Source of the DNA: Patescibacteria group bacterium
Lineage (GTDB): Bacteria; Patescibacteriota; JAHJAL01
Length of the DNA: 64,000 bases
Direction: 5' to 3'
NCBI GenBank assembly: GCA_049322675.1
Contig: JBMORM010000009.1
Coordinates: 158,132-222,131 of the forward strand
This document shows, in pieces, positions 42,473-64,000 of this stretch. Position 1 is the stretch's first letter. Each line of letters begins with the position of its first letter. The notes beneath the pieces were generated by a model that did not search any database, was not told the DNA's origin, and saw only the letters and a list, made by a program, of their open reading frames with translations. The translations under genes and the position numbers were made by a program.

Positions 42473-42486
42473 ATCAAATAATGATT

Positions 42487-44910: not shown

Positions 44911-44983
44911 GCCGAGATAGCTCAGTTGGTAGAGCAAAGGACTGAAAATCCTTGTGTCGCCAGTTCGATCCTGGCTCTCGGCA
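44911..44983 (+). tRNA. tRNA-Phe (GAA)
   Basis: Acceptor stem gccgaga/tctcggc, D-arm gctcagttggtagagc, anticodon loop cuGAAaa and T-arm ggttcgatcc (read as ccagttcgatcctgg). Confidence 0.9.
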
Positions 44984-45015
44984 TTTTTTTTCGACAATAC
45001 ATTATATATAATACG

Positions 45016-45438: not shown

Positions 45439-45458
45439 TTTTTTAGTTTGTATTTTAT

Positions 45459-46802
45459 TTGTTTAAATATTTTATCAAAATGACTCAAGACAACACGATT
45501 ACCACCAATCCTCAGACCATGAAGGATTTATTGGAGTCAACCGGTTGGGATTTTAAAATCTATCAAACCGGAGATGTAGTTAAAGGCAGAGTAATTGACG
45601 TTTCCCAAAATAAAGTCTGGCTGGATATCGGAGGAAAATCTCTTGGAGTTATCCCCAAGAGAGAATTATTGGAAGAAAAAGGATTGAAGGACATTGAAAT
45701 CAACGAAGAGCTTTGCACATATGTTTTGGCACCGGAAAATGATGATGGTTATGCTGTATTATCCCTAAGAAGAGCAATACGAGAAAAGGCTTGGGAAGAA
45801 TTGAAAGACAAGTTTGATAAGCAGGAAAATGTTCAAGTGAGGGTAGTGGAAGCCAACAAGGGTGGGTTGTTGGTGGATATACACGGAGTGAGAGGATTTT
45901 TACCGGTTTCACAACTCAAACCAGAAAATTATCCTCGAGTAGAAGGCGGGAACAAAGAAGAAATCAGAGAAAAACTTTCAAAGTTTGTGAGCAAGGATTT
46001 ACAAGTTCGTATAATTGCTTTTGAAAGAGCGACCAATAAGTTGATTATGTCAGAAAAAGCGGTTCCTGATGCGAAACAAAAAGAGATTGAAGAAAATTAT
46101 CAAATTGGCGATGCGGTTGAAGGAATGATTAGTGGAATTGTTGATTTTGGTGCTTTCATGAAGTTTGATGGCGTAGAAGGTTTGATACATATTTCTGAGA
46201 TTACTTGGGGTAGAGTTGACAAGATTGATGATTATTTGAAAGTCGGCGATCAAGTCAAAGCCATGTTGATCGGACTGGAAAATGGTCGTATTTCTTTGTC
46301 AATCAAACGTCTTCAGTCTGATCCATGGGTCAAGATGATGCAAAAATATGCTGTTGGGGATATTGTTGAAGGTGAGATAAGTAAAATTACTCCTTTTGGT
46401 GCTTTTGCCACAATTGATTCCACTATTGATGGTTTGGTTCATATTTCTGAATTGTCTAGCAAACGGGTAGTGAATCCAGCGGAAGTGGTAAAAGTAGGCG
46501 AGCATCATAAGTTTAAAATTATTTCCATTGAAGCCGACAACCATCGACTGGGCCTGAGTTTGAAGGCTGTAACCGAACCAGAGGAGGAAAAGAAAGAGGA
46601 AAAAGATGATGCTGAGAAAAAATCCTCCGATGTTGACCCTTTGATGGAAATTGACGGAATTACCGCCAAGGTGACAGAGAATTTGCACAAAGGAGGAATA
46701 TCAACCGTCGAGCAATTGAAAAAAATCTCTAAAGAGGATTTGTTGAAGATAGATGGAATTGGTGAAAAGACCGCGGAAAAAATAATCGAGGCGGTGAAAT
46801 AG
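45459..46802 (+). CDS. rpsA: 30S ribosomal protein S1 (four S1 domains plus a C-terminal HhH)
   Basis: Repeated S1 OB-fold signatures (GDVVKGRV, GDAVEGMISG, GDIVEGEISK) and a C-terminal GIGEKTAEKIIEAV. Confidence 0.85.
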   Translation: MFKYFIKMTQDNTITTNPQTMKDLLESTGWDFKIYQTGDVVKGRVIDVSQNKVWLDIGGKSLGVIPKRELLEEKGLKDIEINEELCTYVLAPENDDGYAVLSLRRAIREKAWEELKDKFDKQENVQVRVVEANKGGLLVDIHGVRGFLPVSQLKPENYPRVEGGNKEEIREKLSKFVSKDLQVRIIAFERATNKLIMSEKAVPDAKQKEIEENYQIGDAVEGMISGIVDFGAFMKFDGVEGLIHISEITWGRVDKIDDYLKVGDQVKAMLIGLENGRISLSIKRLQSDPWVKMMQKYAVGDIVEGEISKITPFGAFATIDSTIDGLVHISELSSKRVVNPAEVVKVGEHHKFKIISIEADNHRLGLSLKAVTEPEEEKKEEKDDAEKKSSDVDPLMEIDGITAKVTENLHKGGISTVEQLKKISKEDLLKIDGIGEKTAEKIIEAVK

Positions 46803-46832
46803 CTATTTTGGTAAAATATTCTATTAAAAAAA

Positions 46833-46858
46833 CTATCAGACAACCTGATAGTTTTTTT
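46833..46858. terminator. terminator between the convergent rpsA and ylxR-like genes
   Basis: ctatcag-acaac-ctgatag followed by T7. Confidence 0.7.
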
Positions 46859-46863
46859 AAAAA

Positions 46864-47145
46864 TTATTGTTTCTTTAAATTATCTAAAAATATTTTACTA
46901 AAATCAGAGATGGCTGCGGCTGGAATTTTGGTTTTGAGGCGATGAGAGAATGCGTTTCTTTTGATTGCCTGGCGAAGGCAGTTTTCGTTGGGGCAAATAT
47001 GCGCTCCCCTACCCTCTTTTTTGTGATTAAGATGGGAAGAAATATTAATTTTTTTGCCGTCAAAACAAATACGAAGGAAATTGTTTTGATGATTGGTTTG
47101 GCCGCAACCTATACAAGTGCGTTGATGTTTTATTTTGCCGGTCAT
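46864..47145 (-). CDS. YlxR/DUF448-family protein
   Basis: RTCIGCGQT...LRI..., the conserved Cys cluster of the family. Confidence 0.55.
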   Translation of the reverse strand: MTGKIKHQRTCIGCGQTNHQNNFLRICFDGKKINISSHLNHKKEGRGAHICPNENCLRQAIKRNAFSHRLKTKIPAAAISDFSKIFLDNLKKQ

Positions 47146-47147
47146 AT

Positions 47148-47909
47148 TTATCGCTTATCAAATTTTAGAGTATTTTGTTGGGGAAAAATGTCATTAATAT
47201 TTATCAAGTCAAGAAATGATTGATATATTTTTTCCGGGGTATATATTTCAATTTTTTTGTTGTATTCATTGACTAAAAGTGTATTTTCTTCGACGAGCAG
47301 GTTGTATTCATCAACCAATTGATTGTAGCTAACCAGTTGATTTTCGGCTGATAATTTGTCCATGTTTTGTTTGAGACTGGAAAGTTTGGTCTTGTTTTCA
47401 TTGATTTTTTTATATTTTTCGATCAATGAAATAGCTTCGTTGAAAGTAGTTTGGAGGTTATCTAGATTTTGTGTTTGATTATTTGATTGATAATACTCTC
47501 TAATTTCTGTTTGATTGATAAAATCGTTGTACTCTTGTCGAGTTTTTTTGAGAGCATCCTGGTTGTTGTTTTTGTAGGCAGCATCAAATTCTTCCAGCCA
47601 AATGAAATGAAGACAAGATAAACTTTTTTTTAGAATTGTTTGATAGTCTGGAGAGGAAACTGCGCTATTTTTGTTATCAGAAAAAATTTGTTGAAGACTG
47701 TTTTTGATACTTTCCTTGCTGTCGTGCAGTAGATCGAGGTTGATATTGCTATTATCGTAAACATGATTGGAGTCGCTGATTTGTTGTACATGTATCGAAA
47801 CTTTGTTGATTTGGGAATTGATATTTTTGGTTGCCTGACTGGACGGAAGATTAGCGCCACAGCCGATCAAAAACAGGGAGGAGAAAAGCACAAGCATTTT
47901 TTTGAACAT
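47148..47909 (-). CDS. coiled-coil lipoprotein (253 aa)
   Basis: Lipobox LFLIGCGAN after a signal peptide. Confidence 0.5.
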   Translation of the reverse strand: MFKKMLVLFSSLFLIGCGANLPSSQATKNINSQINKVSIHVQQISDSNHVYDNSNINLDLLHDSKESIKNSLQQIFSDNKNSAVSSPDYQTILKKSLSCLHFIWLEEFDAAYKNNNQDALKKTRQEYNDFINQTEIREYYQSNNQTQNLDNLQTTFNEAISLIEKYKKINENKTKLSSLKQNMDKLSAENQLVSYNQLVDEYNLLVEENTLLVNEYNKKIEIYTPEKIYQSFLDLININDIFPQQNTLKFDKR

Positions 47910-48017
47910 TTTTTTGTCGGTTTTAAAGATAATCTTTCTTTATTATATTTTTAGTTTTGGATAAAATAAAGATATGATTGCTAACTATGAATATTTTATT
48001 GGTTAAACAAAACACAA

Positions 48018-49097
48018 ATGATTGATTTAAATGACGTAAGTGAGATTGAAAAAAGTGACCCGGACGGATATTTGAAAATATTGGCAGAGACACCGAATTT
48101 GTGTCGCCAGGTATTGACGGAATTTGACCAAGTTAATCTCGCCAAGAAAAGATTTGAGAAAGTAGCGATTTGTGCAATGGGCGGCTCGGCGATTGGAGCT
48201 GATTTGGCTCGTTATTTGTTGGAATTTAAAACCAATTTGAACATTCAAGTTTTGAGAGATTACAATTTGCCAAACTGGGTTGACAACAAAACTCTTGTAA
48301 TAACTATTAGCTATTCCGGAAATACGGAAGAAACTTTGACTGCTTTTTCTTTGGCTAAAAAACGAAATTGTTTGATATACGTTATTGCTTCAGGTGGAAA
48401 GTTGATTGAGCAGGCAAAAAATAATCTGATTGATTATTTTTTGCTGCCAACTGGTCTTCCGCCCAGAACAGCTTGGGGTTTGTCATTTATTTTGGTCAAT
48501 GAATTGATACGCAAATACGGCGCTCTCCAAAAAAATGATCTTGATAGCAAGGTCATGATTGACGAAATGGAAAAATCGATTGACGCCTATCGTCACGCTT
48601 TGCCAATTGAGAAAAATCCGGCGAAGTCGATTGCTTTATCTCTGGTAAAATCCACTCCAATTATTTTTGGAGCGGAGCATTTGGGAGTGGTGGCAAGAAG
48701 ATGGAAGGGACAATTTAATGAGAATGCCAAGTTGCCTTCTTTTTATGAAGATTTGCCTGAATTGAACCACAATAGTCAGCAAGGATTGGAATGCAGCGAC
48801 GAAATCAAGAAAAGTTTATCATACTTGGTATTGGATTCCGCTAACTATCATCCCCGCAACCAGTTGCGAGCCAAGGTAGTATTTGAATCATGGCAGAAAA
48901 ACGGTTTTGATGCGACTTTGGTACAGGTGGGTGGCGAGAATGCTTTTGAAGAGATGATCAGATGTATTATTTTGGGAGATTTTGTTAGCGTATATTTGGC
49001 TTTGATGTTGGGAAAAAATCCGGTCAAATACGAAGCGATCGAAGAGTTGAAATCATATTTGAAAACCGAAGAATATACGGATGAATTGTTGGGATAA
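48018..49097 (+). CDS. bifunctional phosphoglucose/phosphomannose isomerase (SIS-domain, archaeal-type PGI/PMI)
   Basis: VAICAMGGSAIGADL and the SYSGNTEETL SIS motifs; size and layout match the PGI/PMI family. Confidence 0.75.
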   Translation: MIDLNDVSEIEKSDPDGYLKILAETPNLCRQVLTEFDQVNLAKKRFEKVAICAMGGSAIGADLARYLLEFKTNLNIQVLRDYNLPNWVDNKTLVITISYSGNTEETLTAFSLAKKRNCLIYVIASGGKLIEQAKNNLIDYFLLPTGLPPRTAWGLSFILVNELIRKYGALQKNDLDSKVMIDEMEKSIDAYRHALPIEKNPAKSIALSLVKSTPIIFGAEHLGVVARRWKGQFNENAKLPSFYEDLPELNHNSQQGLECSDEIKKSLSYLVLDSANYHPRNQLRAKVVFESWQKNGFDATLVQVGGENAFEEMIRCIILGDFVSVYLALMLGKNPVKYEAIEELKSYLKTEEYTDELLG

Positions 49098-49103
49098 TAT
49101 TAT

Positions 49104-49139
49104 TTGATACTAGATACTAGGTACTAGGTTTTAGGTTAG
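49104..49139. repeat. heptamer tandem repeat (GATACTA/GGTACTA/GGTTTTA)
   Basis: gatacta gatacta ggtacta ggtttta ggttaga. Confidence 0.7.
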
Positions 49140-49179
49140 AGAGAGAAAAAGAGATTTATTTCATTATTATTATTTCGAT

Positions 49180-50460
49180 ATGACAAAAATTAAGACGATT
49201 AGAGCTCGGCAGATATTGGATAGTCGCGGTAATCCGACTGTTGAAGCAGACGTGGTTTTGGAGAACGATATTTGGGGAAGAGCGGCAGTGCCAAGTGGAG
49301 CATCAACCGGTGAACACGAGGCGATTGAGTTGCGAGACAAAGATAAAGCTTACGGCGGCAAGGGAGTTTTACAAGCGTGCAACAACGTGATGGATAAAAT
49401 CGCGCCGATTTTGGATGGAGTGGAAATATCTGAACAAGAAACTATTGATAGAAAAATGTTGGAATTGGATGGAACACCCAACAAATCAAATTTGGGAGCA
49501 AATGCAATATTGGCGGTATCGTTGGCTTGCGCACGGGCAGCAGCTGAGGATAGCAAAATGCCGTTGTTTAAATATTTGGCCAGTTGTTACGGTTTTGACT
49601 CTAGTAAATTTATTATGCCGGTGCCAATGATGAATGTAATAAATGGCGGTAAGCATGCTGAAAATTCAACAGATATTCAAGAGTATATGATTGTTCCTTA
49701 TGGAGCGAAAAATGTAAACGAAGCAATAAAAATGGGAGCGGAGGTTTTTGCTGAACTAAAATCATTGATGTCGAAGAATCATTTTCCAACGACGGTGGGA
49801 GATGAAGGCGGTTTCGCGCCAAGTTTAAAATCCAATCAACAAGCTTTGGATATTTTGATATCGGCTATTGAGAAAGCGGGTTACAGTCCGGCCAATCAAA
49901 TTGGCCTGGCACTGGATGTGGCGGCAAGTGAATTTTTTCACGGTGGGATCTATGACATGGTTAGGGAAGGAAAAACACTTTCCACGGCTGAGATGATTGA
50001 TGAGTACAAAGTATGGATTGACGAATATCCGATTGTATCGATAGAAGATGGATTGAATCAAAATGATTGGGAAAATTGGCCAAAGATGCAAGCAGAGATT
50101 GGCAATCGTGTAATGAATGTGGGGGATGATTTTTTGGTAACCAATGTTGACCGTTTGCAAAAAGCAATTGAAACAAAGGCGGCTAATGCGATATTGGTTA
50201 AACTGAACCAAATCGGCAGTTTAACAGAAACTGTGGCTGCGATCAAAATGGCTCAAAAAGCCGGATGGAAAGCGATAGTGTCCCATCGTAGCGGCGAAAC
50301 TTGTGACAGTTTTATCGCTGACTTGGTGGTTGCGACCGGTTGTGGTTTTATCAAAACCGGCTCCATGTCACGCAGCGAAAGAACGGAAAAATATAACCAG
50401 TTGATACGAATTGAAGAGTCTCTTGACAATATGTCCGTTTTCAGTGGTAATTTGAAATAA
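49180..50460 (+). CDS. eno: enolase
   Basis: ARQILDSRGNPTVE, SGETED-like SHRSGETCD, and IKTGSMSRSER. Confidence 0.97.
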   Translation: MTKIKTIRARQILDSRGNPTVEADVVLENDIWGRAAVPSGASTGEHEAIELRDKDKAYGGKGVLQACNNVMDKIAPILDGVEISEQETIDRKMLELDGTPNKSNLGANAILAVSLACARAAAEDSKMPLFKYLASCYGFDSSKFIMPVPMMNVINGGKHAENSTDIQEYMIVPYGAKNVNEAIKMGAEVFAELKSLMSKNHFPTTVGDEGGFAPSLKSNQQALDILISAIEKAGYSPANQIGLALDVAASEFFHGGIYDMVREGKTLSTAEMIDEYKVWIDEYPIVSIEDGLNQNDWENWPKMQAEIGNRVMNVGDDFLVTNVDRLQKAIETKAANAILVKLNQIGSLTETVAAIKMAQKAGWKAIVSHRSGETCDSFIADLVVATGCGFIKTGSMSRSERTEKYNQLIRIEESLDNMSVFSGNLK

Positions 50461-50497
50461 CTTTTTTGAATAAAAAGTAAAAATTTTTTAATAAAAA

Positions 50498-50527
50498 CAA
50501 TCAATCGTTTGTATTGATTGTTTTTTT
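50498..50527 (+). terminator. Rho-independent terminator after eno
   Basis: caatcaat-cgtttgt-attgattg followed by T7. Confidence 0.75.
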
Positions 50528-50592
50528 GTTGTCTTTGAAAACCCTTTGTTGTCGCGATGTTTCCCAATAATAATATTTTTATCATATATATC

Positions 50593-50621
50593 TTGAAATA
50601 TATGGGGGTTTGTGCTACAAT
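50593..50621 (+). promoter_or_regulatory. near-consensus sigma70 promoter with extended -10 (TTGAAA-17 bp-TGcTACAAT)
   Basis: Lies about 57 bp upstream of the giant ORF start. Confidence 0.55.
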
Positions 50622-50677
50622 ATACGGATTTGTAAAAATAAAAAAACGAGAACAAAAGAAAAAAGAAAAATAAAAAC

Positions 50678-53600
50678 TATGCAAAAATTTCTTAAAAAAG
50701 GAATTGCGATCATAACTTTTGTTAGTTTGGTAATACAGACTTGTGGTGGCGCCAATGCTTTGGAGCTTAAAATACTTGATCCGAAAATTGAAGGCAGTTT
50801 TCCAGATTGGGGGAACTTGGGAGAGGTTACCGATCTAAATAAAACTTATAGCGATTTGGTAACCGATAGGATTAGAGCGGTAAAGGAACAAAATGATATT
50901 GGCATAAACGAAGATATCTCGGAGAAAGAAAAAGATGATATTATAGCGAATGTTGGTAAAACCTCGGAGGAAACATTGTCCGTTCCGATTGAAGAGGTTG
51001 ATACAAAATGGAAAAAGCGGATGATGTTGGATGGACTGCAAAATGTAGATGAAAAAATAATTGAAGGTTTAAAAAAGTCACAGATAATTGATACGTTTAT
51101 TGACAGCGAGAACAATCAAGAGACGATTGCCAATCCAACCTTGGAAGACCAGGGAGAGAATCTGACAACCAAAGCAACGGCAGCAGAAATAGTATTGGGC
51201 AAAGACGCAGAACTGGAAAAGAAAATTTCTTTTTCGGGGGTCGTCAATGGAGAAGAAAAATTATATGAGGTCGGCTATCGCCCACTTTCGGCCGATCAAG
51301 TCGAAGCAAATGTGATAGAAAATAAAGCGATCTATGAAAATATTTGGAAAGGTGCGGATGTGGTTTTGACCGCAGAGTCAGACGGTTTTAAAGAAGATAT
51401 TATTTTAAAAGAAAGAAACCAGGTAAAAAATATTGATAGCAGCGGATACCAAGGAGATGGCCACTGGATTTTTTACTATGATTTGAATTTACAAGGTTTG
51501 ACAGCCAAGCTAGACAACAATCAGGTGATTTACCTTGATGAAAATAATCAAGAAATGGCTCGCGTAACCGCACCAATCGTGATAGACAACGTGGGAGAAG
51601 TTTCCAGTCGAGCATATTGGGATTTGATTTCCAAAGAAACCTGGGAAAACGGATATCAAATCGACAAAGAAAAATTTGGACAGGAAGAAATCTTGGAAGA
51701 AGATCTAACTAAAGGGGCGGAGTCGGAAAATAATTTACAAGAAAATGATTTGACCAGCCTTCCTGATTTTGGCGATAGTGATTTGAGTACTGCAGCGGAA
51801 GTTCAGTCAAATAGTGTTTGGCAAGATACCTGGCAGAGTGTCGGAAAATGGTGGAAATCAATTTTCAGTATTTTTGGGGCGGGTAAAGCCCAACAACAAG
51901 GAGAAGAGGAAAATGATTTAAGCGAAACCTCTCAACTTGATCAAACCACGGCAGTTACTCCAGTGGAACAAATCGGTCTGACCAACCAAAATCAAGAAGT
52001 AACAGAAAATTCTTTGACGGAAAAGGACATTTTGGTTTTGGTGGTTGATACCAATAATCTAACTTATCCAATCGATGTTGATCCTACCACTTATATTTTG
52101 ACTCAAAGTGATTTTTATAATACCGCTAACGGTAAATTGAGCAGTAATAATGTGAATGATGTCAAAGTTTACGACACAACCAAAGAGCCAACTAGTAATT
52201 ATAGTTACAATAAGGAAATAAAATCAACGTTGGCTTTTAATAATACCGTAGGAGAATTTGATCTGTCCGCGGTAAATAAAATTGCATACTGGAACCTGGA
52301 TGAGAATAGCGGGTCAATCGCTGAAGATGATGTTACGCCTGCAGCTAACGCATCATTGGTCAATAATCCCGGTTGGACAACGGGGAAAATCGGCCGGGCT
52401 TTGGATTTTGATGGAAACGAAGATTATTTACAAATAAACGATGACAATAAATTGAGCTTTGGTGGAAATAATGCTCTGTCCGTCTGGATCAATCCCGAAA
52501 ATTTGAGTCTGGAGCAAGGAATTTTGGGAAAAGGAACTTCCGGAAATTGGGAATATTATCTGGGAACGACAGTAAATGGAGGTTTGCAATATACTGCCTG
52601 GCAGTTGAATGGTAATGAATATTTTGCCCTGACTGCTCCAAGTAAAACTTTGAAAGCCAATGAATGGTCTCAGATAGTAATTACCAACAATGACGGCAAT
52701 GAGGCTCAGTTGTGGGTAAATGGAAAGTTGATCAAGAAAACAACATCGTATTCCGGAAGCACGGGAAATGGAACGTCTGATTTGAATATTGGAAGAGCGA
52801 ATAATAATGGAGAAATAAATTATTTTACTGGTAAGATAGACAATATTGGTTTGTTTGCTGAAAATTTGAACGAAGGACAAATCAAGGCACTATACAATAA
52901 CGGTTTAAGTAAAATCGTTGGATTGTGGTCGTTGAACGGAGTAGTAAGCGATTATTCCGGACAGAACAATGAATTGAGTAATGGCGGAGCGGTTTTTGAT
53001 GATAACGGACATAATTATCAGGCAATGAATTTTGATGGAGCCGATTGGTTGAATGCCGGAAATAGTAAAAGTTTGTCGTCTGCCTCCGGCTTTTCACTAG
53101 AAACCTGGGTTAAAATACCTGTCAATGGCGTAAATCAAAAATTAATTGAAAAAAATAATGAATATAGTTTAAACATCTGTCCGGACGGACGACCGGTGTT
53201 GATGATAAATACAAATTATGGTTGGAGCAGTACGGCCGGCACCGGAAATAGCTGTATTGATTCAACCGCACCGATTGTCACTGATGATGTCTGGCATAAT
53301 TTGCTTGGTACCTATGATGGAAAAATATTGCGTTTGTATGTTGATGGAAAGCAAACAGCCTATTATTACGCGCCTGGTTCTATCGTCGCAACCACTAATA
53401 ATCTTTTGATAGGACAAAATACGACCGGATCAATTGACGAAGTGGCGGCATACGCCAGACCTTTGTCCTCCGATGAAGCTGAACTGCATTTTGGCTTGGG
53501 ATATCAGTCGAGCGTTTCCACTATTATTAATTTGGACAATGAAATCGGCTACGCAGAATATAGTCAATTGGCTTTAGACAACTTGCAAGTAGAACAAACC

Positions 53601-56600
53601 GGTGTTTTGCAAATAAAAGGAATTGGAAGCAATGGCGAAGCGATAAGTGAAAAAATAAAGTTGAGAAATGGCAACTTGCAGCGCGTTTTGTCAGCCAAGA
53701 GATATAAAGCCATCACGGAATTATCCGCATTGAACGAGGATGGTAACACATCGGAAAAATCTTTGAAAATTTCTTCCGGAAAATTGTTGGCTTTTTCACC
53801 GTTTCATGACGCCAATTGGCGTTACGGTATAACCAAAGTCAATGATTATGTAACCGGTTTGTGGAACTTTGATGAAGGAGAAGGAAATATAGCCGAAGAC
53901 AATAGCGGCAGTAATAATACTGCTTATTTGGCCGGGGGGCAAAGTAATAATAATTGGCTTTATGAAAGAAATATTGATATTTCACCCGCAACTACGATCG
54001 ATGATTATCAATTGAAAGTAGAATTTAATCCAAATAATTTTGACTATATTAAAGCTCAGGATGACGGCGGCGATATCAGATTTTTCAATAACAATGGAGT
54101 GGAATTGTCGTACTGGATTGAAAACTGGAATACTAGTGGAATATCAAATGTTTGGGTGAAAATCCCCAATAGTGGCACTTCATCAATTTCGATGAAATAT
54201 GGGAATCAATCCGCTACCAACAAGAGCAATGGAGAAAATGTATTTGACTTTTTTGATGATTTTTCTGGAAATACTATTAATAATGACAAATGGGTCAACT
54301 ATGATAACGCCGGATATTTATCTCAAGATGGAAAATTGATAACTACGGGCGGGTCCGGCGCCTGGGGTAGTAATGGCTTGATCAGTAAAACAACTTTCCT
54401 TAGAAATAATAATTACGAATTGAATCTGGATTATAAACCAATCAGTGGAAATGATGTAATGTTTGGTTGGCACGATTCGGGAACAGGAACAAGCTATACA
54501 GATTTGGTGTATGCATATTACAGCAATAGTGCCAATGTTTTGATATATGAGGATGGCAATAACCGCGGCACCATGTCTGGTTCCTGGGTGAATAATACCG
54601 AATATAAAATAAAAGTCCCGGTGAAGACAAGCGGAGGAGCAACTTACAAAAGGAGTGTCATTCGAGGAGAAATTTACGAAACAAATTATGACTCAACGTA
54701 TTCTACAGAGAGCCCATTGAAGATAGGTATTGCCAATTATAATAAAGCTTTTGAAATTGATAATTTGTATGTGCGCAGATATGCCGCTACCGAATCGACT
54801 GGTACTTTGGGCGGTTTGATTTTGTCATCGGAAAGTTTGTCCGGCCAACCAAATTGGATGGATAGCAATTGGGCTTATCGCACGATGCTTCGGGTTGATA
54901 GCACGAATAACAATGAAGATTTGACTGATTTCCAAATACCGGTCAATATCGATAGCAAATTATTGATCGAAGCGACTAAAATGCAGGCTGATGGCGACGA
55001 TATTCGTTTTACCGATAGTGACGGGACTACTGGATTGAATTATTGGGTGGAAAGCGGAGTTGACACCAACTCGACTAAGCTGTGGGTAAAATTGCCGACA
55101 CTCCAAGCTAAGTCAAATAAGGCGATATATATTTATTATGGAAATGCTGCTGCAACTGCAAATAGTAGTTTTGACAATGTTTTTACAAAAAATTATAACG
55201 AATCAGGTATTACCGGACTTTGGCACATGGATGATGGTAGCGGGACAACATTGACTGATAGTTCTGGGCAAGGAAATAACGGCACTTTGGTTAACAGCCC
55301 AACTTGGCAAGCGACAGATGGCGGCCAATGGGGAAATCAAAGCGGGGTAACTTTTGGCACCGGTTCACATCTTTTGTTTAACGGGACCAATAATGTTGTT
55401 CAGATCAATGATAATTCGACTTTAAAGCCGAGCAATGCAATAACTTTGAGTGCGTGGTTTAACACAAATAATAAAACATTATTACAAAGAATTGTTTCCA
55501 AAACGGAAAGCGGAAGTTATCAGTTGAGTCTCAATGACACTTCCTGCCCTTCTAGCACATTATGCTTTCTTGTCAACGTAGCCGGCACATACAAATATGC
55601 TTCCATTCCTACGTCATATATTAATAACAATCAGTGGTATTTTGTTAGTGGCACTTATGATGGCAGTTTGGTTAAATTGTATCTAAATGGTTCGTTGGTG
55701 TCAGAAAATGCCGCCACTGGTACTATGACGCACTCTATAACCCCCTTGTGTATTGGCGGCGAATCGCAAGCGGGAAATTGTCTGGGTGGTGGATATTTCA
55801 ATGGATATATTGATGAGGTTCGAATATACGAGAGAGCTTTGTCAGCATTGGATATAAAATCATATTTTGAGAGAAGAAAATCTACATTTATCGCACCAAA
55901 TGTCAGTATAGATAATGTTACGCCAACATCATCTTTGCCAAATTGGGATGAAAACGGAAAATTTGGTAAGGCAATAAGTTTTGATGGGCAGGATGATTTT
56001 GTACAGATTCCTAGTGACGATAGCATAAGTCCAACCAAACAAATGACGGTGGGAGCTTGGATCAAGCCAATGGCGTTGAATGGATGGCTTTATACCAAAG
56101 CGATAAGCATGTATCCGCCGACTGCATACGATGATTATCAAGTCAAAGTTACTTTAAATAGCGGTAACTTTGATTATGGTAAAGCCAAACCCGATGCAAG
56201 TGATTTACGCTTCTCTGATAGTCGAGGCAACCAGTTGAAATATTGGATAGAAAAATGGGATCAACAAGGAACATCCTTGGTTTGGATTAAGGTCGCCAAG
56301 ACGGGAACAAACAAAATATTTATGTATTATGGAAATTCTGATGCCACCGCAGAAACTAGTTTTGATGGTGTTTTCACAAAAAATTTCAACGAAAATAATA
56401 TCGTCGGGTTGTGGCATATGGACGAAGGTAGTGGCGGAACGACAGCTGATATTTCGGGCTTTAACCACACGGCAACATTGAACAACACTCCAACCTGGCA
56501 AGGAACGGATGGCGGTCAATGGGGCGGACGAGCCGATGTAAAATTTGCTTCAGGTTCGCATCTGAATTTTAATGGCAGTAATCAATACTTATCGGTGCCG

Positions 56601-59600
56601 GATAGCGATGATTGGGATTTTGGCACCGGTGATTTTACAATTGATTTTTGGATAAATATCCCAAGTAATGCCACTTCGCAAACAATTATTGGAAATAGAC
56701 ATACCGCCGGGGCAAATAGTGTTTGGAATATTGAGTTTTATTCCACCGCCAATAGAATTGAATGGCATACACAATCAACGGTGGTTGGCAATAGTTCGGC
56801 AACTCTTTTGACAAACAAGTGGAATCACGTAGTTTTTACTCGCTCGTCAGGTAGTAGCAAATTTTATATTAATGGCACCAATACTAACACATTTAGTAAT
56901 ACATACAATTACAATAGTGGACAGACATTATATATTGGCAAAGATGGCAGTAATAGTACCGGACAATTGAATGGTTATCTGGATGAAGTTAGAGTAATCA
57001 AAGGACGAGCACTTTCAGCTCAAGAAATATTAACACAATACGAACGAAGATTATTTTTTAGCAATGAACCAACAACCAGTGTGGCGGTGGAAAACACTCC
57101 CCCACCCTCAACCAATCTTTACTCGCGAACAATCGATATTGATCCGGCGACTACAAAAGAAAATTATGTTGCTAAATTGGAATTAACACCAAGCAATTAT
57201 GATTATGCCAAATCACGGCCGGATGGTGGAGATTTGCGATTTGTCGATGACCAGAGAAATAATTTGAATTATTATATTCAAAATTGGAATAGTGGCGGCA
57301 CTTCAACTATCTTTATCAAAATACCAAATACGGGAACAAGCGCGATCAAGATGTATTATGGCGACAAATCATTGATCAACCTCAGTAACTGTGCCAATAC
57401 CATGACTTTGTGCGACGATTTTGGCGATGGCCAGTTTGACAATGACAAATGGTCTAAAGTCAGATTGGATGACCCAGACTGGAACGAAGGAGTCACAGAA
57501 ACTGGTTGGTTTATGTTGAAAGCATTAAACGGTAAAAACTTGGGGGACGGTAATAATACCGCACCAATGATCCTTTCCAATGATTTGGGAAATATTGATT
57601 ATGAATTGACTGCTCGTCTGAAATTTAATCCTGCTCCGTTTGAAAACGAACAACAGGCCGGGTTAATTATTTACGAGGATGAAAATAATTACTTGCTGGC
57701 AGATATTGGCAATATTGACGGTGGAAAAGCAAAATTGGCGGTAGAAGATGATGCTTCAATGGTCGCGTTTGGTGATAATTGGACAATACCAGCGGTTAGT
57801 GATTTGAAAATTGTGAAAACCGGAAATAATTATAAGTTTTATTACAAAGACGCAAATTCCAGTTCATGGATTGAACATAGTAGCGAAATTGCGGCGGAGA
57901 TGAATAAACAACAAATCGGTTTTACTGCCTTGGCAACTGCGGGATCGACGATCAGTTCATATTTTGACCATATCGAAATTAAAGAAATTTCGACCGAATC
58001 CAATTTGTCTTTGGAAACGGAACAATCATGGACGTACAAAAGAAGTGTTGGTTTTAATCCGTCCGTACCGGACGATGACTGGCAGGTGCGAGTAGATTTA
58101 ACTTCGTCAAATTTTGATTATGGTCATGCCAAATCCGACGGTAGCGATCTACGTTTCTTTACTCTCGATGGAGAAAAGTTGGATTATTGGATAGAGAAAT
58201 TTAATGACAGCGGAAATTCTGTGGTTTGGGTAAAAGTGCCGGAAGCGGGCACTAATGAAATATTAATGTATTACGGAAACAATAACGCAGTGACTGAAAG
58301 TAACGGGGAAAGAATTTTTGAATTTTTTGACGATTTCAACAATGGAGTTATCGATAGTAGTAAATGGGCAAACACAACAGGATTTACTGAATCGGGTGGA
58401 TATTTATCGGGCGGAAATACAACGAATAGAATTAATACTGTCGCCCGTTTTTCCGGTGACAAAATATTGGAAACAAAACATTTTGTTTCTACTGAAGCCA
58501 CAAATGGTCACATGGCCGCCGGTTGGTTTAATTCAACAACCGACAGTTTTGGCTTAAGGTTGAATCCGTCTAATACCTGGTACATACGATCTGATGGAAA
58601 TTGGAGCGGTTCAAATAGTTTCACCTTTATGAATCAATGGATAAAGGCGATCGTCAGTGCCACTGGTAGTACTTCCAAGATAAGATTATATCGTGAATCA
58701 GATGGTGTATATAGTAACGAAATATCATATTCAAATAGCGGACTATCAAATGAGCCGATAACTTTGGGAAAACAATATGATAACGCGAATGCAGGACAAA
58801 CTTACGTAGCAAATTGGGATTGGATTTTTGTGCGAAAAAAATATACGAGCAACGCCGAACCAACATCAACTTTGAGCGAAGAAGAACGATGGTTGTTTAG
58901 AAAAAATATTACTTTGACACCAGCCACGCCTCTGGCGGATTACCAAGTAAAAATTGAATTGAATAGCGGTAATTTTGATTATGGCAGTACGCGCGAGGAC
59001 GGCGGAGACATTCGATTTTTTGACAGCAATGGCTCAGCCTTGAGTTATTGGGTGGAAAGATGGGATAAAAACGGGACATCAGTAATATGGGTAAAAGTTC
59101 CCACGATCGGCACCAGTACAATTCAAATTGTGTACGGCAATCAAACCGCAGAGAGTCAGAGCAATGGTGAAAATACATTTGATTTCTTTGATGATTTTGA
59201 CGATCATTCTTTGGATGCGGACAAATGGAGTTGGACCAGAGAATCGGCCGGGGATTGGAATGAGGGTTATGACCGGCCGGATCAATTGTCAATGACTGCT
59301 TTGAATGGAAAAAATCTGTGGGGGACTGATGACAGCGCTCCGATATTACTGGAAAATAATACCAACTTCCCGATCGCTGCGGATTTTGAATTGATGGTAT
59401 CGACCGAGACGGATTTGACACAAAATTATGAACAAGCTGGTTTGATAGTATATGAAAGTGATTTGACCCACGTTCAAGCAATGCGGGGGTACAATGATGG
59501 GGCAAAAGTAACCTTCAAATACGAAGCGGATAACAGCGTAGTAGCGGCCGTGGACGAGAATCAGACGAGCAATTATACCGATTTGAAATTGAGAAAGTCA

Positions 59601-62600
59601 GGCAATGACTATACGATGTATTACAAAAATATTGAAAATGCTGGTTGGACACAACATGGCACAAATATTTCGGCCGTTATAAATAATCTCAAATTCGGTT
59701 TGACTTCATATGCGGATAGCGGCGCCAATGCCAATTCTTTTTACGACAACGTCCGTTTGCGAAAGTATTCAACCAATGATCCTGTCGCTACGGTGGGAAC
59801 ACAACAAGAAGCAAGCGCGGTAGTAACAAATAACATGATCAACAAAGGCACGCAATTTTCACTTGGTGCCACCGATGAGAAAGTATATGCGACAATGGGC
59901 AGTCAAACTATTGAAGGCGTGATTGATACCGATTGGAACCATGTGGCTTTGACTTATGACGGCGAAACACAAAAGTTGTTTGTAAATGGACAATTGAAAC
60001 AATCTTTGGAATACGATTTGCCGACTTGGCCTTTGGATGATTCGGATTTAATAATCGGTGATCAATATTATGGCGCAATTGATGATTTATTGATATCAAA
60101 AAGAGCGATGTCGGAAACCGAGATAAAAGACTGGTACGAAAGCGGCGTTGCTTACGAAAAAAAGCAGCCCACCGAGAATCAATTATTGGGAGAAAGCGAA
60201 ATAGATACAATTACTTCAGGATTAATTGGCCGGTGGAATATGAATGAGACGATGGGTATTGGCGTAAATGATAGTTCTGGTCACAATCATCATGGTTCAG
60301 CCATCAATGCCAAGATAGTAGAAGGTAGAGAAGGTAAAGCCAGAAATTTTGTGGCAGACAATGATTACGTCTCTATACCTGACAGCACTGAATTCAATTT
60401 GTCGGGCGACTACAGCATGTCGGCCTGGATCAATCCGGATAATATTGCCATGGACGATCGCGGAATCATGGGTACATACAACGGAAGTAGCAATGGCTTT
60501 ATTTTTTCTTTGGGATCATCAACTTCCGGTAATCCTACTTTGAATTTCTGGTCCAACGGGACCTGGAATAATGGTCCGGCAATAACCATGGATGGCACCT
60601 GGAAACATGTAGTGTTCACCAAACAAAATAATGTTGGTACTTTTTATCTGGATAGTGAGGCAAAGGCGGTGGTGACCGCATATCAGATCAATGACGGCGG
60701 TTCTATGCAGATTGGGGCTGGTGGAACAAGCTGGGCTTCCAACCGATTTGACGGACGGATCGATGATACCAGAATTTACAACCGGGCTTTGACCCCAACT
60801 GAAGTATATAAATTGGCTCATGAGTTTGATCCGCGTTGGACCAGCGAACAAATAGCCAGCCAAGCTAGTATGATCCAAGTAAGCGGTAATCAGGAAAATC
60901 CTCAGCATGAAGTGGCTATAAAAATAATTACTCCCGGTCCGGCGGGGATCGCAACTTACAAGACTTCGATTGACGGCGGAATGACTTGGTCGGAAGCTAC
61001 TTATACTACGTCAATTGGAACTTCGACCGTCAGAAGAGATTATACAAATACCGGCGTTGATATTGATTGGAATTTTGGAACGGACTTTGGCTCCGGCGAT
61101 GTGTTTGATATTGCTTCCTGGTACACCGAACCAAGATCAGCCTCAAGAGGCATATCTCGAACTTTTCCGGAAGTAGCCAATATAGTGGCTACAGACAAGT
61201 CGATAGAAATATTAGACAAAGCCGACAATAGTTTGTGGATGAGATTTACAAATTCTGCTGATAGTGGCTATTTGGGTGGTTCGACGACAAATATTGGAGC
61301 AGTAGATATGACGTATGGACATTTGGTAGCCGGAAGTAATACCGCCAGCAACTCGATCGGCCTGCTCGATATTGATTTTTCCAATGAAAAAGCCAGATAT
61401 TATCGAAATAATTCTTTGCCGGAAATACTGACCGGGAATATCATGAATCGAAATTTTGGCAATGAATTGATGGACGACAATAATTTGATTTTAAATAATA
61501 CCATCGTCAATGACGTGGCGGCAAAGATGATAAACAATGATATCTTGATAGCGGCGGCAACTGAGGGCGGTTTGAATGTAATTAATAAAAATATCGGTCA
61601 AATAATCTACGGCGCCAATGGCGCAAATAGCCTCAAAAAAGTAGCTTTGAGCAACAATGCCAATGCGGTTATCAATCAAACTGGCGACGCAAATATCGCT
61701 TTGTCCTTGGACAATATTTCCAATTACCACAATGATTTTGACTTGGAGAATCGAAACGAAGCGTATTTGGGAACCACCGCTTCCGGCTGGCAGAGTGATT
61801 ATCAACTGACAAACGATGCCGATACCGGTACGGTGAATGATTTGGCGATCAATGACAACAATTGGTTGGCTGACGAGGCCTCACCACAAATATTGATCGG
61901 AACCAATACCGGAGCGAGTTTGATCGATACTATGTCGAATAATGATGGCGATGATACGGAAAACAAAAGACATGATGGTTTCATCAAACATCTTAATAAT
62001 CAGTACATAACTGAGGGAATGAATGGAAATGGCTTGATCAAGGGTATGTGGTTGGAAGGAGATCAGACCGAAACAGTAGTGAGCGATCGCAGCGGACAGG
62101 CAAATGATTTGACGGTACACGGATTTTTGGGCAATGGCACTTTGACCAACAATGATTGGACAAATGGCGTACGGGGCAAGTCATTGAATTTTGACGGAAA
62201 CAATGATTACTTGGCCATCAACGATAATATTGATTTTGATTTTACCAATAATGATACTGTGAGCTTCGGCGCCTGGGTGAGACCAAAAGCGGCGGCCGAG
62301 AAATATATATTTGCGCAATCCGATGGGAGTGCTACTGACACCAGTTTTGGCTTGAAAACCAAAAATTCGGGAACGGGAATAAATTTCCAAGGCAATATCG
62401 GCTTTGGCAGCGATTTGTCCGAGGTTGATTCCAAGGAATATCCGCTTGATGTCTGGCATTATGTGGTTGGGGTGATGGACGGAAAAAACCAAACTTTGAG
62501 TATATATATCGACGGTCAGTTGGAAGAAGACGTTACTACGCCGGCCGGAATAAATAATCCAAGTAATCCTGTTACAATCGGCTGGGCGGAGGGAGCAAGC

Positions 62601-64000
62601 AAATATTTCGAAGGAAATATCAGCGGTGTATTTTTGACAAATAATGTTTTGACAAAAAACCAAATCAATAAAATGTATCAAGTCGGTTTGGGAGCTTTAA
62701 ATGACAACGCCGATGATTTGAATAAGATTGGCGGAACCAGCAATGATATCCGAGCAGTAGCGTTGGATGACGACAATTATCGCGCGTTTTTGGGAACCGC
62801 CACCGGTCTGAGCGAAATCGATTTATTGAAGGACAGTCGCACTCAATATTGGAATATCACTACCAGTCCGGCTTTGCCAAATAATTATGTAAAAACGATC
62901 AGTTATGGCAGTAATCGAATTTTGGTGGGGACAAATTCGGGAGTGATAAACATAAGAACTGATGGCAGCTACACTTCATCAGACACTTTGGGCAAATTGC
63001 AATCCGGAAAGGGCCGAGATGTGTTCACGGATGGTGCTTACAATTATTACGTTAGCGACAAAGGTTTGGATATCGTCAAATTGAGCGATATGTCGAGAAA
63101 GGGATATGTGACCAGAGAAGATGGTTTCAATAGCGTCGTCGCTTTTGGCGGAATGGTATATATGGGAAGCGAAGTTGGCGTTTGGAAAGCAAATATTACC
63201 AACGTGGTGGACGAATACGATCTTACTTCTGCCGCTTATACCAATCTATCCGTACCACAATTGATTTCAAATAATGTTTATGATGTTCATGGCCGAATTA
63301 TCGGCGGTAAACAATATCTTGTGGTAGGTACGGACAATGGCGCTCAATTGATTGGCGATATTGACGGGGAAATAAAATATACCGTTTTCAGAAATAATGA
63401 AAATGACGATATTACTAAAGTTTGGTTAAATGAAGACGGTGATCTGGCATATTACAATGCGACAGACAAGACGGTTTGCGTCTATAACAACGCGATCGAC
63501 TCGGAATTATACTATATGCAATTGGGAACAAGTTCATATACCCGACGTTACGATTTGAGTACAACCCCAAGATTGATTGATAATGTGGTCAACGATTTGG
63601 TATATATGGCCAATACTTCGACCGCACAAGCCGGAGGTAACACTTTGTATATTGGAACAAAGAGCGGCACGACGGTTATTCAGGAACATAGCACGATGGC
63701 CAGCAGCACAGTCAAACATTTGGTCAGCGGCGCAATAAACGATGATAGAACCGGTATCTTGTTGCCGTTTGCCGATCACAATTTGGCCCCCGCTACCGTG
63801 GACAACGCCGTATATAATTCGGTTAATCAATTTGATAGCGGACGACAAAAATTTAATTTCGCAAACGATAGAGATATTGCAGCTTTTTGGGATTTTGATC
63901 AAACTATGCCGGGCGGAGTGGCCGATCGAAGCGGAAATAATAACAACGGTTATTTTGGATCGGATACTGGTTTGGCTGGCGGTAAAATCGGTCAGGGATT
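50678..64000 (+). CDS. giant surface protein, at least 4,441 aa, 3'-partial (it runs off the window). It has a signal peptide and then alternating DUF2341-like, LamG/concanavalin-A-like and Reg_prop beta-propeller modules.
   Basis: Frame 2 is stop-free from 50678 to 64000. Six DUF2341-type units (..NFDYG..DG.D.RF...G..L.YW.E.W...GTS..W.K.P..GT..I.MYYGN) and more than eight LamG-type units (W.HV..TYDG....LY.NG) are present, followed by Reg_prop-like (L..GT..G...ID) repeats after 61.5 kb. Confidence 0.8.

What the first reader, a model, noticed from the sequence alone, without database searches (positions are those of the whole stretch)
50678..64000. Giant open reading frame, at least 13.3 kb, not reported by the ORF track, encoding a modular DUF2341/LamG/beta-propeller surface protein
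Frame 2 on the + strand has no stop codon from the ATG at 50678 to the end of the window. The track therefore lists only antisense junk ORFs in this region. The product of at least 4,441 aa begins with a signal/anchor (MQKFLKKGIAIITFVSLVIQTCGGANA). It contains at least six DUF2341-type modules with the invariant YYGN ending (around 54.0, 54.9, 56.2, 57.2, 58.1 and 59.0 kb). These are interleaved with concanavalin/LamG-like lectin modules (WxHV..TYDG....LY.NG) and followed by two-component-regulator-propeller-like repeats beyond 61.5 kb. The gene has its own near-consensus extended -10 promoter. Proteins of this size and lectin-rich make-up are what one expects for host/cell attachment in an epibiotic or ultra-small bacterium.
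Basis: seen in the sequence. Interest (0 to 1): 0.8.

Follow-up and report, generated by a model that had tools for sequence, protein, structure and literature searches.

The report
Giant lectin-rich surface protein gene
The window ends inside a real, selectively constrained gene of about 6,000 codons from an ultra-small (Patescibacteria/CPR) bacterium; it encodes a secreted chain of sugar-binding-type modules that most likely sticks the cell to glycans on a partner cell, a kind of protein already noted in this phylum though this family is unannotated.

Summary
The ATG is at 50679 (not 50678) and lies in frame 3 (not 2). The frame is open for 4,440 codons to the window end (chance about 1e-140).

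An independent Logan assembly is 100% identical over 15.5 kb and calls the gene at 5,984 aa. Two collinear orthologs (41-50% identity; 6,032 and 5,742 aa) continue 1,545 and 1,546 aa past the point where the window stops. dN/dS against an 88%-identical relative is 0.12. This is a functional gene, not a pseudogene or an assembly artefact.

ThrRS places the organism in Patescibacteria. The N-terminus is a Sec signal peptide. No TM anchor, LPXTG, Tat or prepilin signal is present, and no pilus genes lie upstream.

Best reading: a secreted multivalent glycan-binding adhesin. This is a new member of a known kind, because giant DUF2341 proteins in Patescibacteria are already reported. Interest is moderate.

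The parts
50493..50525 (+). Terminator-like hairpin after the enolase stop, followed by a T-run. It separates enolase from the giant gene.
   Evidence: RNA fold gives -10.9 kcal/mol, z = -3.9 against shuffles. The stem is kept in the relative L084. It is AT-rich, so the consensus terminator scan missed it.
50593..50621 (+). Sigma-70-type promoter-like element: TTGAAA, 17 nt spacer, TG, TACAAT (extended -10).
   Evidence: It matches 10 of 12 positions and has the TG. It is 100% conserved in the 87%-identical relative L084. It is a consensus match only; no transcript data are available.
50679..64000 (+). Giant coding sequence. The first 4,440 codons are in the window and the gene continues beyond it. 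The inferred full length is 5,984 aa.
   Evidence: No stops in 4,440 codons. The Logan contig is 100% identical over window 44930-60460 and calls the gene from 50679 at 5,984 aa. Orthologs P0139 and P0140 are collinear. dN/dS is 0.12.
50679..50759 (+). Sec-type signal peptide (aa 1-27) with the cleavage motif ANA|LE.
   Evidence: It is the only hydrophobic 19-mer in the protein. AxA-type sites align in the orthologs: VFA|LE and VQA|VE. No RR motif and no conserved prepilin motif are present. No dedicated signal-peptide predictor was available.
50760..52253 (+). N-terminal region (aa 28-525) restricted to this ortholog group. It reads as a helical part, a beta-rich part, an acidic low-complexity part, and a highly conserved 55-aa block (YPIDVDPTTY...).
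   Evidence: No Pfam hit and no PDB relative. The only database hit is an 88%-identical fragment. The AlphaFold model failed at pLDDT 37. The block at aa 471-525 is 71-73% identical to the orthologs.
52254..53528 (+). Two Laminin_G_3 (ConA-like lectin) modules, aa about 526-950.
   Evidence: Pfam PF13385 gives 143 bits in 2 stretches.
53529..53942 (+). Conserved unassigned linker domain, aa 951-1088.
   Evidence: No Pfam hit. It is 57-58% identical to the orthologs, above the protein average of 43-46%.
53943..59798 (+). Core array, aa 1089-3040. It holds six DUF2341 modules, each followed by a jelly-roll-type or unassigned module. Extended DUF2341 modules: aa 1089-1206, 1389-1503, 1801-1904, 2147-2259, 2446-2564, 2738-2851. 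Partners: unassigned (1207-1385), LamG (1504-1738), LamG (1901-2125), DUF1349/GH43_C2-like (2260-2440), unassigned (2565-2725), DUF1349/GH43_C2-like (2852-3040). A conserved LamG N-terminal fragment lies at aa 1739-1800.
   Evidence: Pfam PF10102 hits six times at 58-95 bits. PF13385, PF07081 and PF17851 also hit. Copies are 30-56% identical at protein level. DNA copies are at most 72% identical over at most 143 nt.
59799..60833 (+). A short Laminin_G_3 module and a full one, aa about 3041-3385.
   Evidence: Pfam PF13385 gives 142 bits in 2 stretches. The full copy is the only part with a PDB sequence relative (5hon_A, extracellular arabinanase; E 3e-8). This copy is absent from ortholog P0140.
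60834..62048 (+). Undescribed module, copy 1 (aa 3386-3790). It has a small N-terminal domain with an Asp-box-like SIDGGMTW motif, then a beta-propeller.
62049..62693 (+). Laminin_G_3 module, aa about 3791-4005.
   Evidence: Pfam PF13385 gives 76.6 bits.
62694..63848 (+). Undescribed module, copy 2 (aa about 4006-4390), propeller part.
   Evidence: The module HMM hits aa 4157-4358 at E 5.6e-15. BLASTP against copy 1 gives E 6e-4. Pfam gives faint propeller hits: EML_2 at E 0.003 and Reg_prop at E 0.61. This copy was not modelled; its fold is inferred from homology to copy 1.
63849..64000 (+). Start of the next LamG module, cut by the window end.
   Evidence: It aligns to the start of a Laminin_G_3 module in P0140 and P0139.

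Best explanation
This is the first three-quarters of a functional gene of about 5,984 codons in a Patescibacteria (CPR) bacterium.

Shown:
- The gene sits after a terminator-like hairpin and a conserved promoter-like element.
- The product starts with a Sec signal peptide.
- The exported protein is acidic and rich in Asn, Gly, Ser and Thr. The part in the window is about 485 kDa.
- The chain contains seven to eight LamG modules and two DUF1349-type ConA-like modules.
- It also contains six DUF2341 modules, each paired with a following LamG, DUF1349-type or unassigned module.
- It contains two beta-propellers of an undescribed family, each followed by LamG.

Inferred from orthologs: beyond the window lie more LamG modules and a GH130/GH43-type five-bladed propeller. 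There is no membrane or sortase anchor.

Inferred function: the many jelly-roll lectin-type modules bind glycans on the envelope of a partner or host cell, or on a polysaccharide matrix. Multivalency gives firm attachment from weak individual sites. The better-conserved DUF2341, linker and propeller modules act as the scaffold. The faster-evolving and shuffled lectin modules set specificity.
For: Gene reality:
- The open frame is far beyond chance.
- An independent assembly is identical.
- Orthologs are collinear at 41-50% identity, and their extra length (1,545 and 1,546 aa) matches the 1,544 aa predicted for this gene.
- PGI-enolase-gene synteny is conserved.
- dN/dS is 0.12.

Export:
- The only hydrophobic segment is N-terminal, with aligned AxA-type cleavage sites.

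Domains:
- Pfam scores are far above their cut-offs.
- The only PDB sequence relative is a domain of an extracellular arabinanase.

Scaffold versus specificity:
- DUF2341 is 46-61% identical to the orthologs, the linker 57-58% and propeller copy 2 55%. Most LamG modules are 31-42%.
- Modules are swapped or lost between orthologs.

Organism: ThrRS.

Literature:
- Giant DUF2341 or FhaB proteins in Patescibacteria were proposed as adhesion or host-interaction factors (PMC11809585).
- Glycan-binding-domain envelope proteins are essential for epibiotic growth of a cultivated Saccharibacterium (PMC10633639).
- The LamG domain of TafC is proposed as the adhesive tip of a fimbria (PMC11821415).
Against: - No binding, localisation or expression data exist for this protein or for any close relative.
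- No anchor to the producing cell was found, so it might be released rather than displayed.
- The ConA-like superfamily also includes glycoside hydrolases. The orthologs carry a GH130-like stretch, so an enzymatic role is not excluded.
- The last roughly 1,544 aa were not seen for this gene itself.
- The lifestyle of this organism (epibiotic or free-living) is unknown.
- The conservation contrast between module types comes from only two orthologs.
Confidence: 0.6

Rival explanations
1. The protein is mainly a polysaccharide- or cell-wall-degrading or processing enzyme, with many carbohydrate-binding modules feeding one or more catalytic domains. It would be used to feed on, or breach, host envelopes or biomass.
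For: - Pfam hits to GH43_C2 and DUF1349 ConA-like modules.
- The only PDB sequence relative is a domain of an extracellular arabinanase.
- A Glyco_hydro_130-like stretch (E 3e-9) lies in the C-terminal part of ortholog P0140.
- Giant genes of predatory bacteria have been linked to cell-wall degradation (bioRxiv 10.1101/2023.11.21.568195).
Against: - No catalytic glycoside hydrolase family reaches threshold within the 4,440 aa of the window.
- GH43_C2 is the C-terminal ConA-like domain of beta-xylosidases in Pfam's own description; that it is a non-catalytic accessory module rests on my own knowledge of the family. Only DUF1349 in module 6 (35.4 bits) passes its 32.4-bit cut-off; in module 4 it scores 25.2.
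- The GH130 match covers only profile positions 31-140 of 320 and lies in a homolog, not in this sequence.
- This reading is not exclusive with adhesion.
Confidence: 0.17
2. The protein is a structural envelope component (S-layer-like coat, sheath or fibre) with no specific partner recognition.
For: - It is very large, acidic, poor in Cys and built of repeated beta-sandwich modules.
- It is conserved and syntenic next to housekeeping genes.
- Purifying selection is strong.
Against: - No S-layer homology or other cell-wall-binding domain was detected.
- Lectin-type modules diverge faster than scaffold modules and are shuffled between orthologs. That fits recognition better than a lattice.
Confidence: 0.1
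3. The protein is a type IV pilus-associated tip adhesin (PilY1- or MshQ-like), as the usual annotation of DUF2341 suggests.
For: DUF2341 has been linked to PilY-like adhesins and to archaeal type IV pilus loci (PMC4858521). [quoted passage not shown]
Against: - There is no prepilin-type leader. The hydrophobic stretch precedes the putative cleavage site, and the motif is not conserved in the orthologs.
- No PilY1-type domain appears among the Pfam hits.
- No pilus assembly genes were found among the 38 ORFs scanned of the 40 ORFs of at least 150 aa upstream (ORF list).
- In the relative the gene again follows PGI and enolase.
Confidence: 0.06
4. The open frame is a pseudogene, an assembly chimera or a collapsed repeat.
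For: The protein is modular and repetitive, which is where assemblers can fail. The end of the gene is not in the window.
Against: - No stops in 4,440 codons.
- An independent assembly is 100% identical over 15.5 kb.
- DNA-level repeats are at most 72% identical over at most 143 nt.
- Orthologs are collinear.
- dN/dS is 0.12.
Confidence: 0.01

Closest known systems
Giant (over 4,000 aa) DUF2341- and/or FhaB-containing proteins of Patescibacteria (PMC11809585)
   Same: Same phylum, same size class, same DUF2341 domain, and the same proposed role in adhesion or host interaction.
   Different: That paper counted such proteins and gave no architecture for this family. This ortholog group is known only from unannotated Logan and ENA assemblies. 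It has no FhaB/TPS domain. It carries an undescribed propeller-LamG cassette.
Multi-LamG (ConA-like lectin) surface proteins of CPR bacteria and DPANN archaea
   Same: Secreted proteins with several LamG modules, predicted to recognise and fix the small cell to its host (PMC10266531; bioRxiv 10.1101/2025.02.25.640227).
   Different: Those described carry up to about five LamG modules and are far smaller. Here at least ten ConA-like modules combine with six DUF2341 modules and two propellers in about 6,000 aa.
TafC, the tip adhesin of haloarchaeal Tat-fimbriae (NCBIfam NF052521; PMC11821415)
   Same: A LamG domain used, as proposed, as the adhesive end of a surface structure. The NCBIfam model matches six times through that LamG part.
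   Different: The score of 226.6 is below the 410 cut-off. Only profile positions 136-363 match. There is no pilin-like donor-strand domain and no twin-arginine signal. It is not a member.
PilY1/MshQ-type type IV pilus adhesins carrying DUF2341
   Same: They share the DUF2341 domain family (PMC4858521).
   Different: No prepilin signal, no PilY1 domain and no neighbouring pilus genes. The protein is also several times larger.
SPEARE-type giant proteins of Nanohaloarchaeota
   Same: Giant extracellular proteins of an ultra-small symbiont, with adhesion-type domains (PMC10266531).
   Different: Those are membrane-anchored and carry a VirB4/TraG-like ATPase domain. Neither feature is detected here.

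Membership tests
DUF2341 (Pfam PF10102) | The match to the Pfam model is above the gathering score (23.4 bits). | tested here: met
   Six separate copies score 57.9-94.7 bits each when scanned segment by segment. The whole protein scores 408 bits.
Laminin_G_3 / ConA-like lectin-glucanase superfamily (Pfam PF13385) | The match to the Pfam model is above the gathering score (27.6 bits). | tested here: met
   471 bits in 7 stretches for the whole protein. Single modules score 76-143 bits.
Reg_prop, two-component regulator propeller (Pfam PF07494) | The match to the Pfam repeat model is above the gathering score (20.4 bits). | tested here: not met
   10.9 bits, E 0.61, with no stretch passing on its own.
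Beta-propeller fold (structural class, not a sequence family) | The predicted structure superposes on solved propellers with significant scores. | tested here: met
TafC family fimbrial protein (NCBIfam NF052521) | The whole-protein score reaches the curated cut-off of 410 bits (equivalog model). | tested here: not met
   226.6 bits. The best stretch covers profile positions 136-363 only, which is the LamG part.
TafC family fimbrial protein (NCBIfam NF052521) | A twin-arginine (Tat) signal and an N-terminal pilin-like donor-strand domain. | tested here: not met
   There is no RR in the first 40 residues. Profile positions 1-135 are not matched by the best stretch. The features are as described in PMC11821415.
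Type IV pilus tip adhesin (PilY1/MshQ type) | A PilY1-type domain, a prepilin-like leader, or pilus assembly genes in the neighbourhood. | tested here: not met
   No such Pfam family appears among the hits. No conserved prepilin motif is present. No pilus genes were found among the 38 upstream ORFs scanned. The downstream neighbourhood lies outside the window and is not testable.
Two-partner-secretion exoprotein (FhaB type) | An N-terminal TPS/haemagglutination-activity domain. | tested here: not met
   No Pfam hit of any kind in aa 1-520 at E<=0.1.
Sec-exported protein with a cleavable signal peptide | An N-terminal basic region, a hydrophobic core and an AxA-type cleavage site. | tested here: met
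   Seen directly in the sequence and aligned in three orthologs. No dedicated predictor was available, and cleavage itself is not shown.
Glycoside hydrolase/phosphorylase GH130 (Pfam PF04041) | A match above the gathering score, with the catalytic residues in place. | not testable with these tools
   The relevant region lies beyond the window. In ortholog P0140 a partial match (36.7 bits against 26; profile positions 31-140 of 320) is present. Catalytic residues were not examined.

The most novel reading that the evidence does not exclude
The roughly 400-aa module present twice near the end of the window is an Asp-box-like small domain plus a beta-propeller. On this reading it is a widespread, uncatalogued extracellular recognition module that works as a fixed cassette with the LamG domain that follows it. 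The roughly 6,000-aa protein would then be the conserved, syntenic host-recognition organ of a Patescibacteria clade, with its lectin modules exchanged between lineages to retarget hosts.
Probability: 0.3. Interest if true: 0.55.

Novelty: new member of a known kind. Interest (0 to 1): 0.4.

Why it matters
How CPR/Patescibacteria cells recognise and hold on to partner cells is largely unknown, and almost none are cultivated. This gene gives a concrete, well-delimited candidate. It is a conserved, strongly constrained protein of about 650 kDa whose modules can be expressed one by one and tested on glycan arrays or host cells.

It also exposes a large domain family (1,290 cluster representatives) that current domain libraries do not describe and that travels with LamG domains.

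The practical lesson for the scan is that ORF lists which drop frames running off a contig end hide exactly this class of gene.

It does not change the current picture. Giant lectin-rich surface proteins are already expected in this phylum.

Tried and rejected
- Translating from 50678 as given produced 468 stops. The ATG is at 50679.
- I first noted an in-frame upstream ATG at 50601. This was wrong. The ATG is at 50602, is out of frame, and stops at 50671. A relative has a 1-nt indel there, so the extension is not conserved coding sequence.
- I tried to recover the 3' end of the gene, without success:
  - A GTDB species-representative scan with the last 400 aa found no relative.
  - The first attempt at that scan failed on a frame error.
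  - The look-up tool does not accept proteins over 5,000 aa, so the rest of the Logan contig could not be fetched.
  - The homolog search did not return the self protein.
- UvrA was useless for taxonomy, at about 60% identity to many phyla.
- A whole-protein self-BLAST returned only the self hit. Chunked BLAST worked.
- The AlphaFold model of the N-terminal 503 aa, built from 4 sequences, failed at pLDDT 37 and pTM 0.36. No fold is claimed.
- PDB sequence searches gave nothing for the N-terminus and only one LamG relative for the whole protein.
- The afdb50 fold library was unavailable.
- Profile-profile comparison of the unassigned modules after DUF2341 copies 1 and 5 with the ConA-like modules was inconclusive. 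The alignments were tiny, and even known superfamily members were not linked.
- The genomic context of a stand-alone propeller-module protein (P0006) gave no functional hint.
- Cluster look-ups gave no organism names.
- Shine-Dalgarno comparison could not discriminate between candidate start codons, because most genes here lack such a motif.
- Considered and rejected: TafC membership, a PilY1/MshQ-type pilus adhesin, an FhaB-type exoprotein, a SPEARE-type protein, and a pseudogene or assembly artefact.
Full report
**1. The observation**

Translating from 50678 as given produces 468 stops. One base further on, an ATG at 50679-50681 opens a frame with no stop for 4,440 codons, up to the last complete codon of the window. 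By position this is frame 3, not frame 2.

The other five frames of the same 13.3 kb carry 120-468 stops each. From base composition a codon is a stop with probability 0.07, so the chance of no stop in 4,440 codons is about 1e-140. In 200 shuffles the longest open run was 161 codons.

The ORF lister shows only three antisense ORFs of 150-198 aa here, because by design it omits ORFs that run off the end of the source.

The in-frame stop upstream is at 50571. The only earlier in-frame start-type codon is a TTG at 50610, inside the predicted -10 box. An ATG at 50602 is out of frame and stops at 50671.

**2. Is it a real, intact gene?**

- *Independent assembly.* An exact-protein look-up of the enolase just upstream found a Logan contig (SRR32167788_71906, 23.7 kb). 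It is 100% identical to window 44930-60460 and has a gene called from the same ATG with a product of 5,984 residues. By arithmetic on the contig coordinates, that call ends about 33 nt before the contig end. This suggests a true stop, although I could not read that DNA.
- *Orthologs.* An exhaustive HMMER search returned two full-length relatives, P0139 (6,032 aa) and P0140 (5,742 aa). They align collinearly with the whole 4,440 aa at 41% and 47-50% identity. They continue for 1,545 and 1,546 aa beyond the point where the window stops. The Logan call predicts 1,544 aa.
- *Selection.* A third relative, an ENA contig of 5 kb (L084), has the same gene order (PGI, enolase, start of the giant gene) and is 88% identical in protein. 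Over 748 aligned codons dS is 0.56, dN is 0.066 and dN/dS is 0.12.
- *Repeats.* Inside the gene the longest DNA repeats are 143 nt at 72% identity, and protein modules are 25-56% identical. Collapse of repeats during assembly is not a concern.

Pseudogene or chimera is therefore effectively excluded for the part in the window.

**3. Expression signals**

After the enolase stop there is a hairpin followed by a T-run (50493-50525; -10.9 kcal/mol; z -3.9). A TTGAAA-17-TG-TACAAT element lies at 50593-50621. In L084 this element is 100% conserved and the hairpin stem is kept.

A 1-nt indel in the purine-rich leader changes the frame of the upstream ATG between the two genomes. That argues that translation starts at the conserved ATG at 50679.

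These are consensus matches and conservation, not transcript data. Most genes in the window lack a Shine-Dalgarno motif, so that criterion is uninformative.

**4. Organism and neighbourhood**

The window is ordinary chromosome. It holds UvrA, ThrRS, MiaB, MiaA, purine nucleoside phosphorylase, an S1 protein, PGI, enolase and tRNA-Phe.

ThrRS is 79% and 76% identical to proteins named 'Patescibacteria group bacterium'. It is about 63% identical to Parcubacteria, Portnoybacteria, Pacebacteria and Gribaldobacteria. UvrA was uninformative.

No type IV pilus or secretion genes were found among the 38 ORFs scanned of the 40 ORFs of at least 150 aa upstream.

**5. Anatomy of the product** (aa numbering from the ATG)

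| Residues | Module | Evidence |
|---|---|---|
| 1-27 | Signal peptide. It is the only hydrophobic segment. AxA-type sites align in the orthologs (ANA\|LE, VFA\|LE, VQA\|VE). | |
| 28-525 | Region restricted to this ortholog group. No Pfam hit, no PDB relative, and the structure prediction failed. | |
| 526-950 | Two Laminin_G_3 modules | |
| 951-1088 | Conserved unassigned domain | |
| 1089-3040 | Six DUF2341 modules, each followed by a partner module | |
| 3041-3385 | A short and a full LamG. The full one is the only part with a PDB sequence relative, an extracellular arabinanase (5HON). | |
| 3386-3790 | Undescribed module, copy 1 | see section 6 |
| 3791-4005 | LamG | |
| 4006-4390 | Undescribed module, copy 2 | see section 6 |
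| 4391-4440 | Start of another LamG | |

The partners of the six DUF2341 modules, in order, are: unassigned, LamG, LamG, DUF1349/GH43_C2-type ConA-like, unassigned, and DUF1349/GH43_C2-type.

The 'YYGN' ending is common but not invariant. The six copies read KYGN, YYGN, YYGN, YYGD, YYGN and VYGN.

The part in the window is 485 kDa after signal removal. It has pI 4.5, is rich in Asn, Gly, Ser, Thr and Asp, and has ten Cys.

**6. The 'propeller-like repeats'**

Pfam gives no significant hit in aa 3390-3800. In aa 4000-4440 it gives only faint hits: Beta-prop_EML_2 at E 0.003 and Reg_prop at E 0.61 (10.9 bits against a cut-off of 20.4). Reg_prop membership is therefore not supported.

The two regions are related to each other (BLASTP E 6e-4; module HMM E 5.6e-15).

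A profile of the first copy plus two database relatives found 1,290 cluster representatives at E<=0.001 and 800 at E<=1e-10. Carriers are mostly multi-LamG proteins. Stand-alone forms of 600-680 aa have no Pfam hit at all. Where there is room after the module, 70 of 110 copies are followed by a LamG within 120 aa. This is a lower bound from a crude model.

So the fold-level idea is right and the family is an undescribed one. It is preceded by a small domain with an Asp-box-like SIDGGMTW motif. The blade number cannot be stated from this model, and copy 2 was not modelled.

**7. What lies beyond the window** (inference from orthologs only)

The last 1,592 aa of P0140 hold two more Laminin_G_3 modules and a partial Glyco_hydro_130-like match (36.7 bits; profile positions 31-140 of 320) in a region of GYATS-DGI-W repeats.

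Neither ortholog has a C-terminal transmembrane segment, an LPXTG-type signal, a twin-arginine motif or a conserved prepilin motif. How the protein stays with the cell, if it does, is unknown.

**8. Evolutionary pattern**

- Against the two orthologs, DUF2341 modules (46-61%), the linker domain (57-58%), the block at aa 471-525 (71-73%) and propeller copy 2 (55%) are better conserved than most LamG modules (31-42%).
- The modules after DUF2341 copies 1 and 5 have exchanged places in P0139.
- One LamG is missing in P0140.

This fits a conserved scaffold carrying exchangeable recognition modules. It rests on only two comparisons.

**9. Mechanism**

*Shown:* this is a functional, constrained, Sec-signal-bearing giant gene built of lectin-type jelly rolls, DUF2341 modules and propellers, in a Patescibacteria genome.

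*Inferred:* it is an extracellular, multivalent glycan-binding adhesin used to attach to a partner cell or a polysaccharide matrix (confidence 0.6).

*Rivals:*
- An enzyme with many binding modules (0.17; not exclusive with adhesion).
- A structural envelope or coat protein (0.10).
- A pilus tip adhesin (0.06). There is no prepilin leader, no PilY1 domain and no pilus genes nearby.
- An artefact or pseudogene (0.01).

**10. Comparison with what is known**

- PMC11809585 reports that 149 of 2.1 million Patescibacteria proteins exceed 4,000 aa. Of these, 82 carry FhaB and/or DUF2341 domains, and the authors propose adhesion or host interaction.
- DUF2341 was linked to PilY-like adhesins by Makarova et al. 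(PMC4858521).
- ConA-like/LamG surface proteins have long been proposed as attachment factors of CPR and DPANN.
- Glycan-binding-domain envelope proteins are essential for epibiotic growth of a cultivated Saccharibacterium (PMC10633639).
- The NCBIfam TafC hit (226.6 bits against a cut-off of 410) is explained by TafC's C-terminal LamG domain.

**11. Verdict**

The domain claims are largely right. The Reg_prop label is wrong at family level but right at fold level. The functional reading is the standard, untested inference.

It is a new member of a known kind. Two modestly new elements emerge:
- an unannotated, syntenic ortholog family of about 6,000 aa;
- an undescribed propeller module family that travels with LamG.

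Interest: 0.4.

Noticed in passing
window 6290-6419 (+): Rfam LOOT RNA (RF03000) matches at 79.4 bits against a gathering score of 46.4, over the full model length. It lies in a low-GC, ORF-poor stretch (about 5.3-10.1 kb) next to an IS1595-family transposase gene at 4444-5286.
   Followed up: no
window 38014-44984: A tyrosine integrase (38014-38826) and a DUF2178 membrane protein are followed by three minus-strand surface-type proteins (39719-44633). These give sub-threshold hits to Big_1, SdrD_B-like and WxL-interacting-like domains, or no hit. A tRNA-Phe follows at 44910-44984. GC here is 0.41-0.43 against about 0.37 for the window. This could be an island integrated at the tRNA that carries further surface proteins.
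   Followed up: no
window 34287-37775 (-): An HNH endonuclease gene (34287-34976) lies directly downstream of a 930-aa AAA_21/SMC-like ATPase gene (34983-37775). This could be a defence gene pair.
   Followed up: no
window 60834-62048 and 62694-63848; proteins P0139-P0287: The propeller-containing module is a large domain family absent from Pfam. It has 1,290 cluster representatives at E<=0.001, occurs up to three times per protein, and also occurs as stand-alone proteins of 600-680 aa, of which P0006 shows N- and C-terminal hydrophobic segments.
   Followed up: partly
window 54300-54835 and 58373-58855 (aa 1207-1385 and 2565-2725); P0139: The modules that follow DUF2341 copies 1 and 5 have exchanged positions in ortholog P0139 relative to the window protein and P0140. 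LamG at aa 3171-3385 has no counterpart in P0140. This is module shuffling within an otherwise collinear giant gene.
   Followed up: partly
window 50640-50678 versus L084 about 2715-2754: A 1-nt indel in the purine-rich leader just upstream of the start codon puts an upstream ATG in frame in the relative but not in the window. The gene caller therefore gave the relative's protein 26 extra N-terminal residues.
   Followed up: yes
window 55893-56078 (aa 1739-1800): A stretch that matches only the first 60 or so residues of a LamG module runs straight into DUF2341 copy 3. It is 56% identical in both orthologs, so it is an old, retained feature rather than a recent deletion.
   Followed up: no
window, 25 start sites sampled: Most genes in the window have no recognisable Shine-Dalgarno motif upstream of the start codon.
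   Followed up: no
window 22117-23868 (+): A 583-aa ORF has no Pfam hit at E<=0.001.
   Followed up: no
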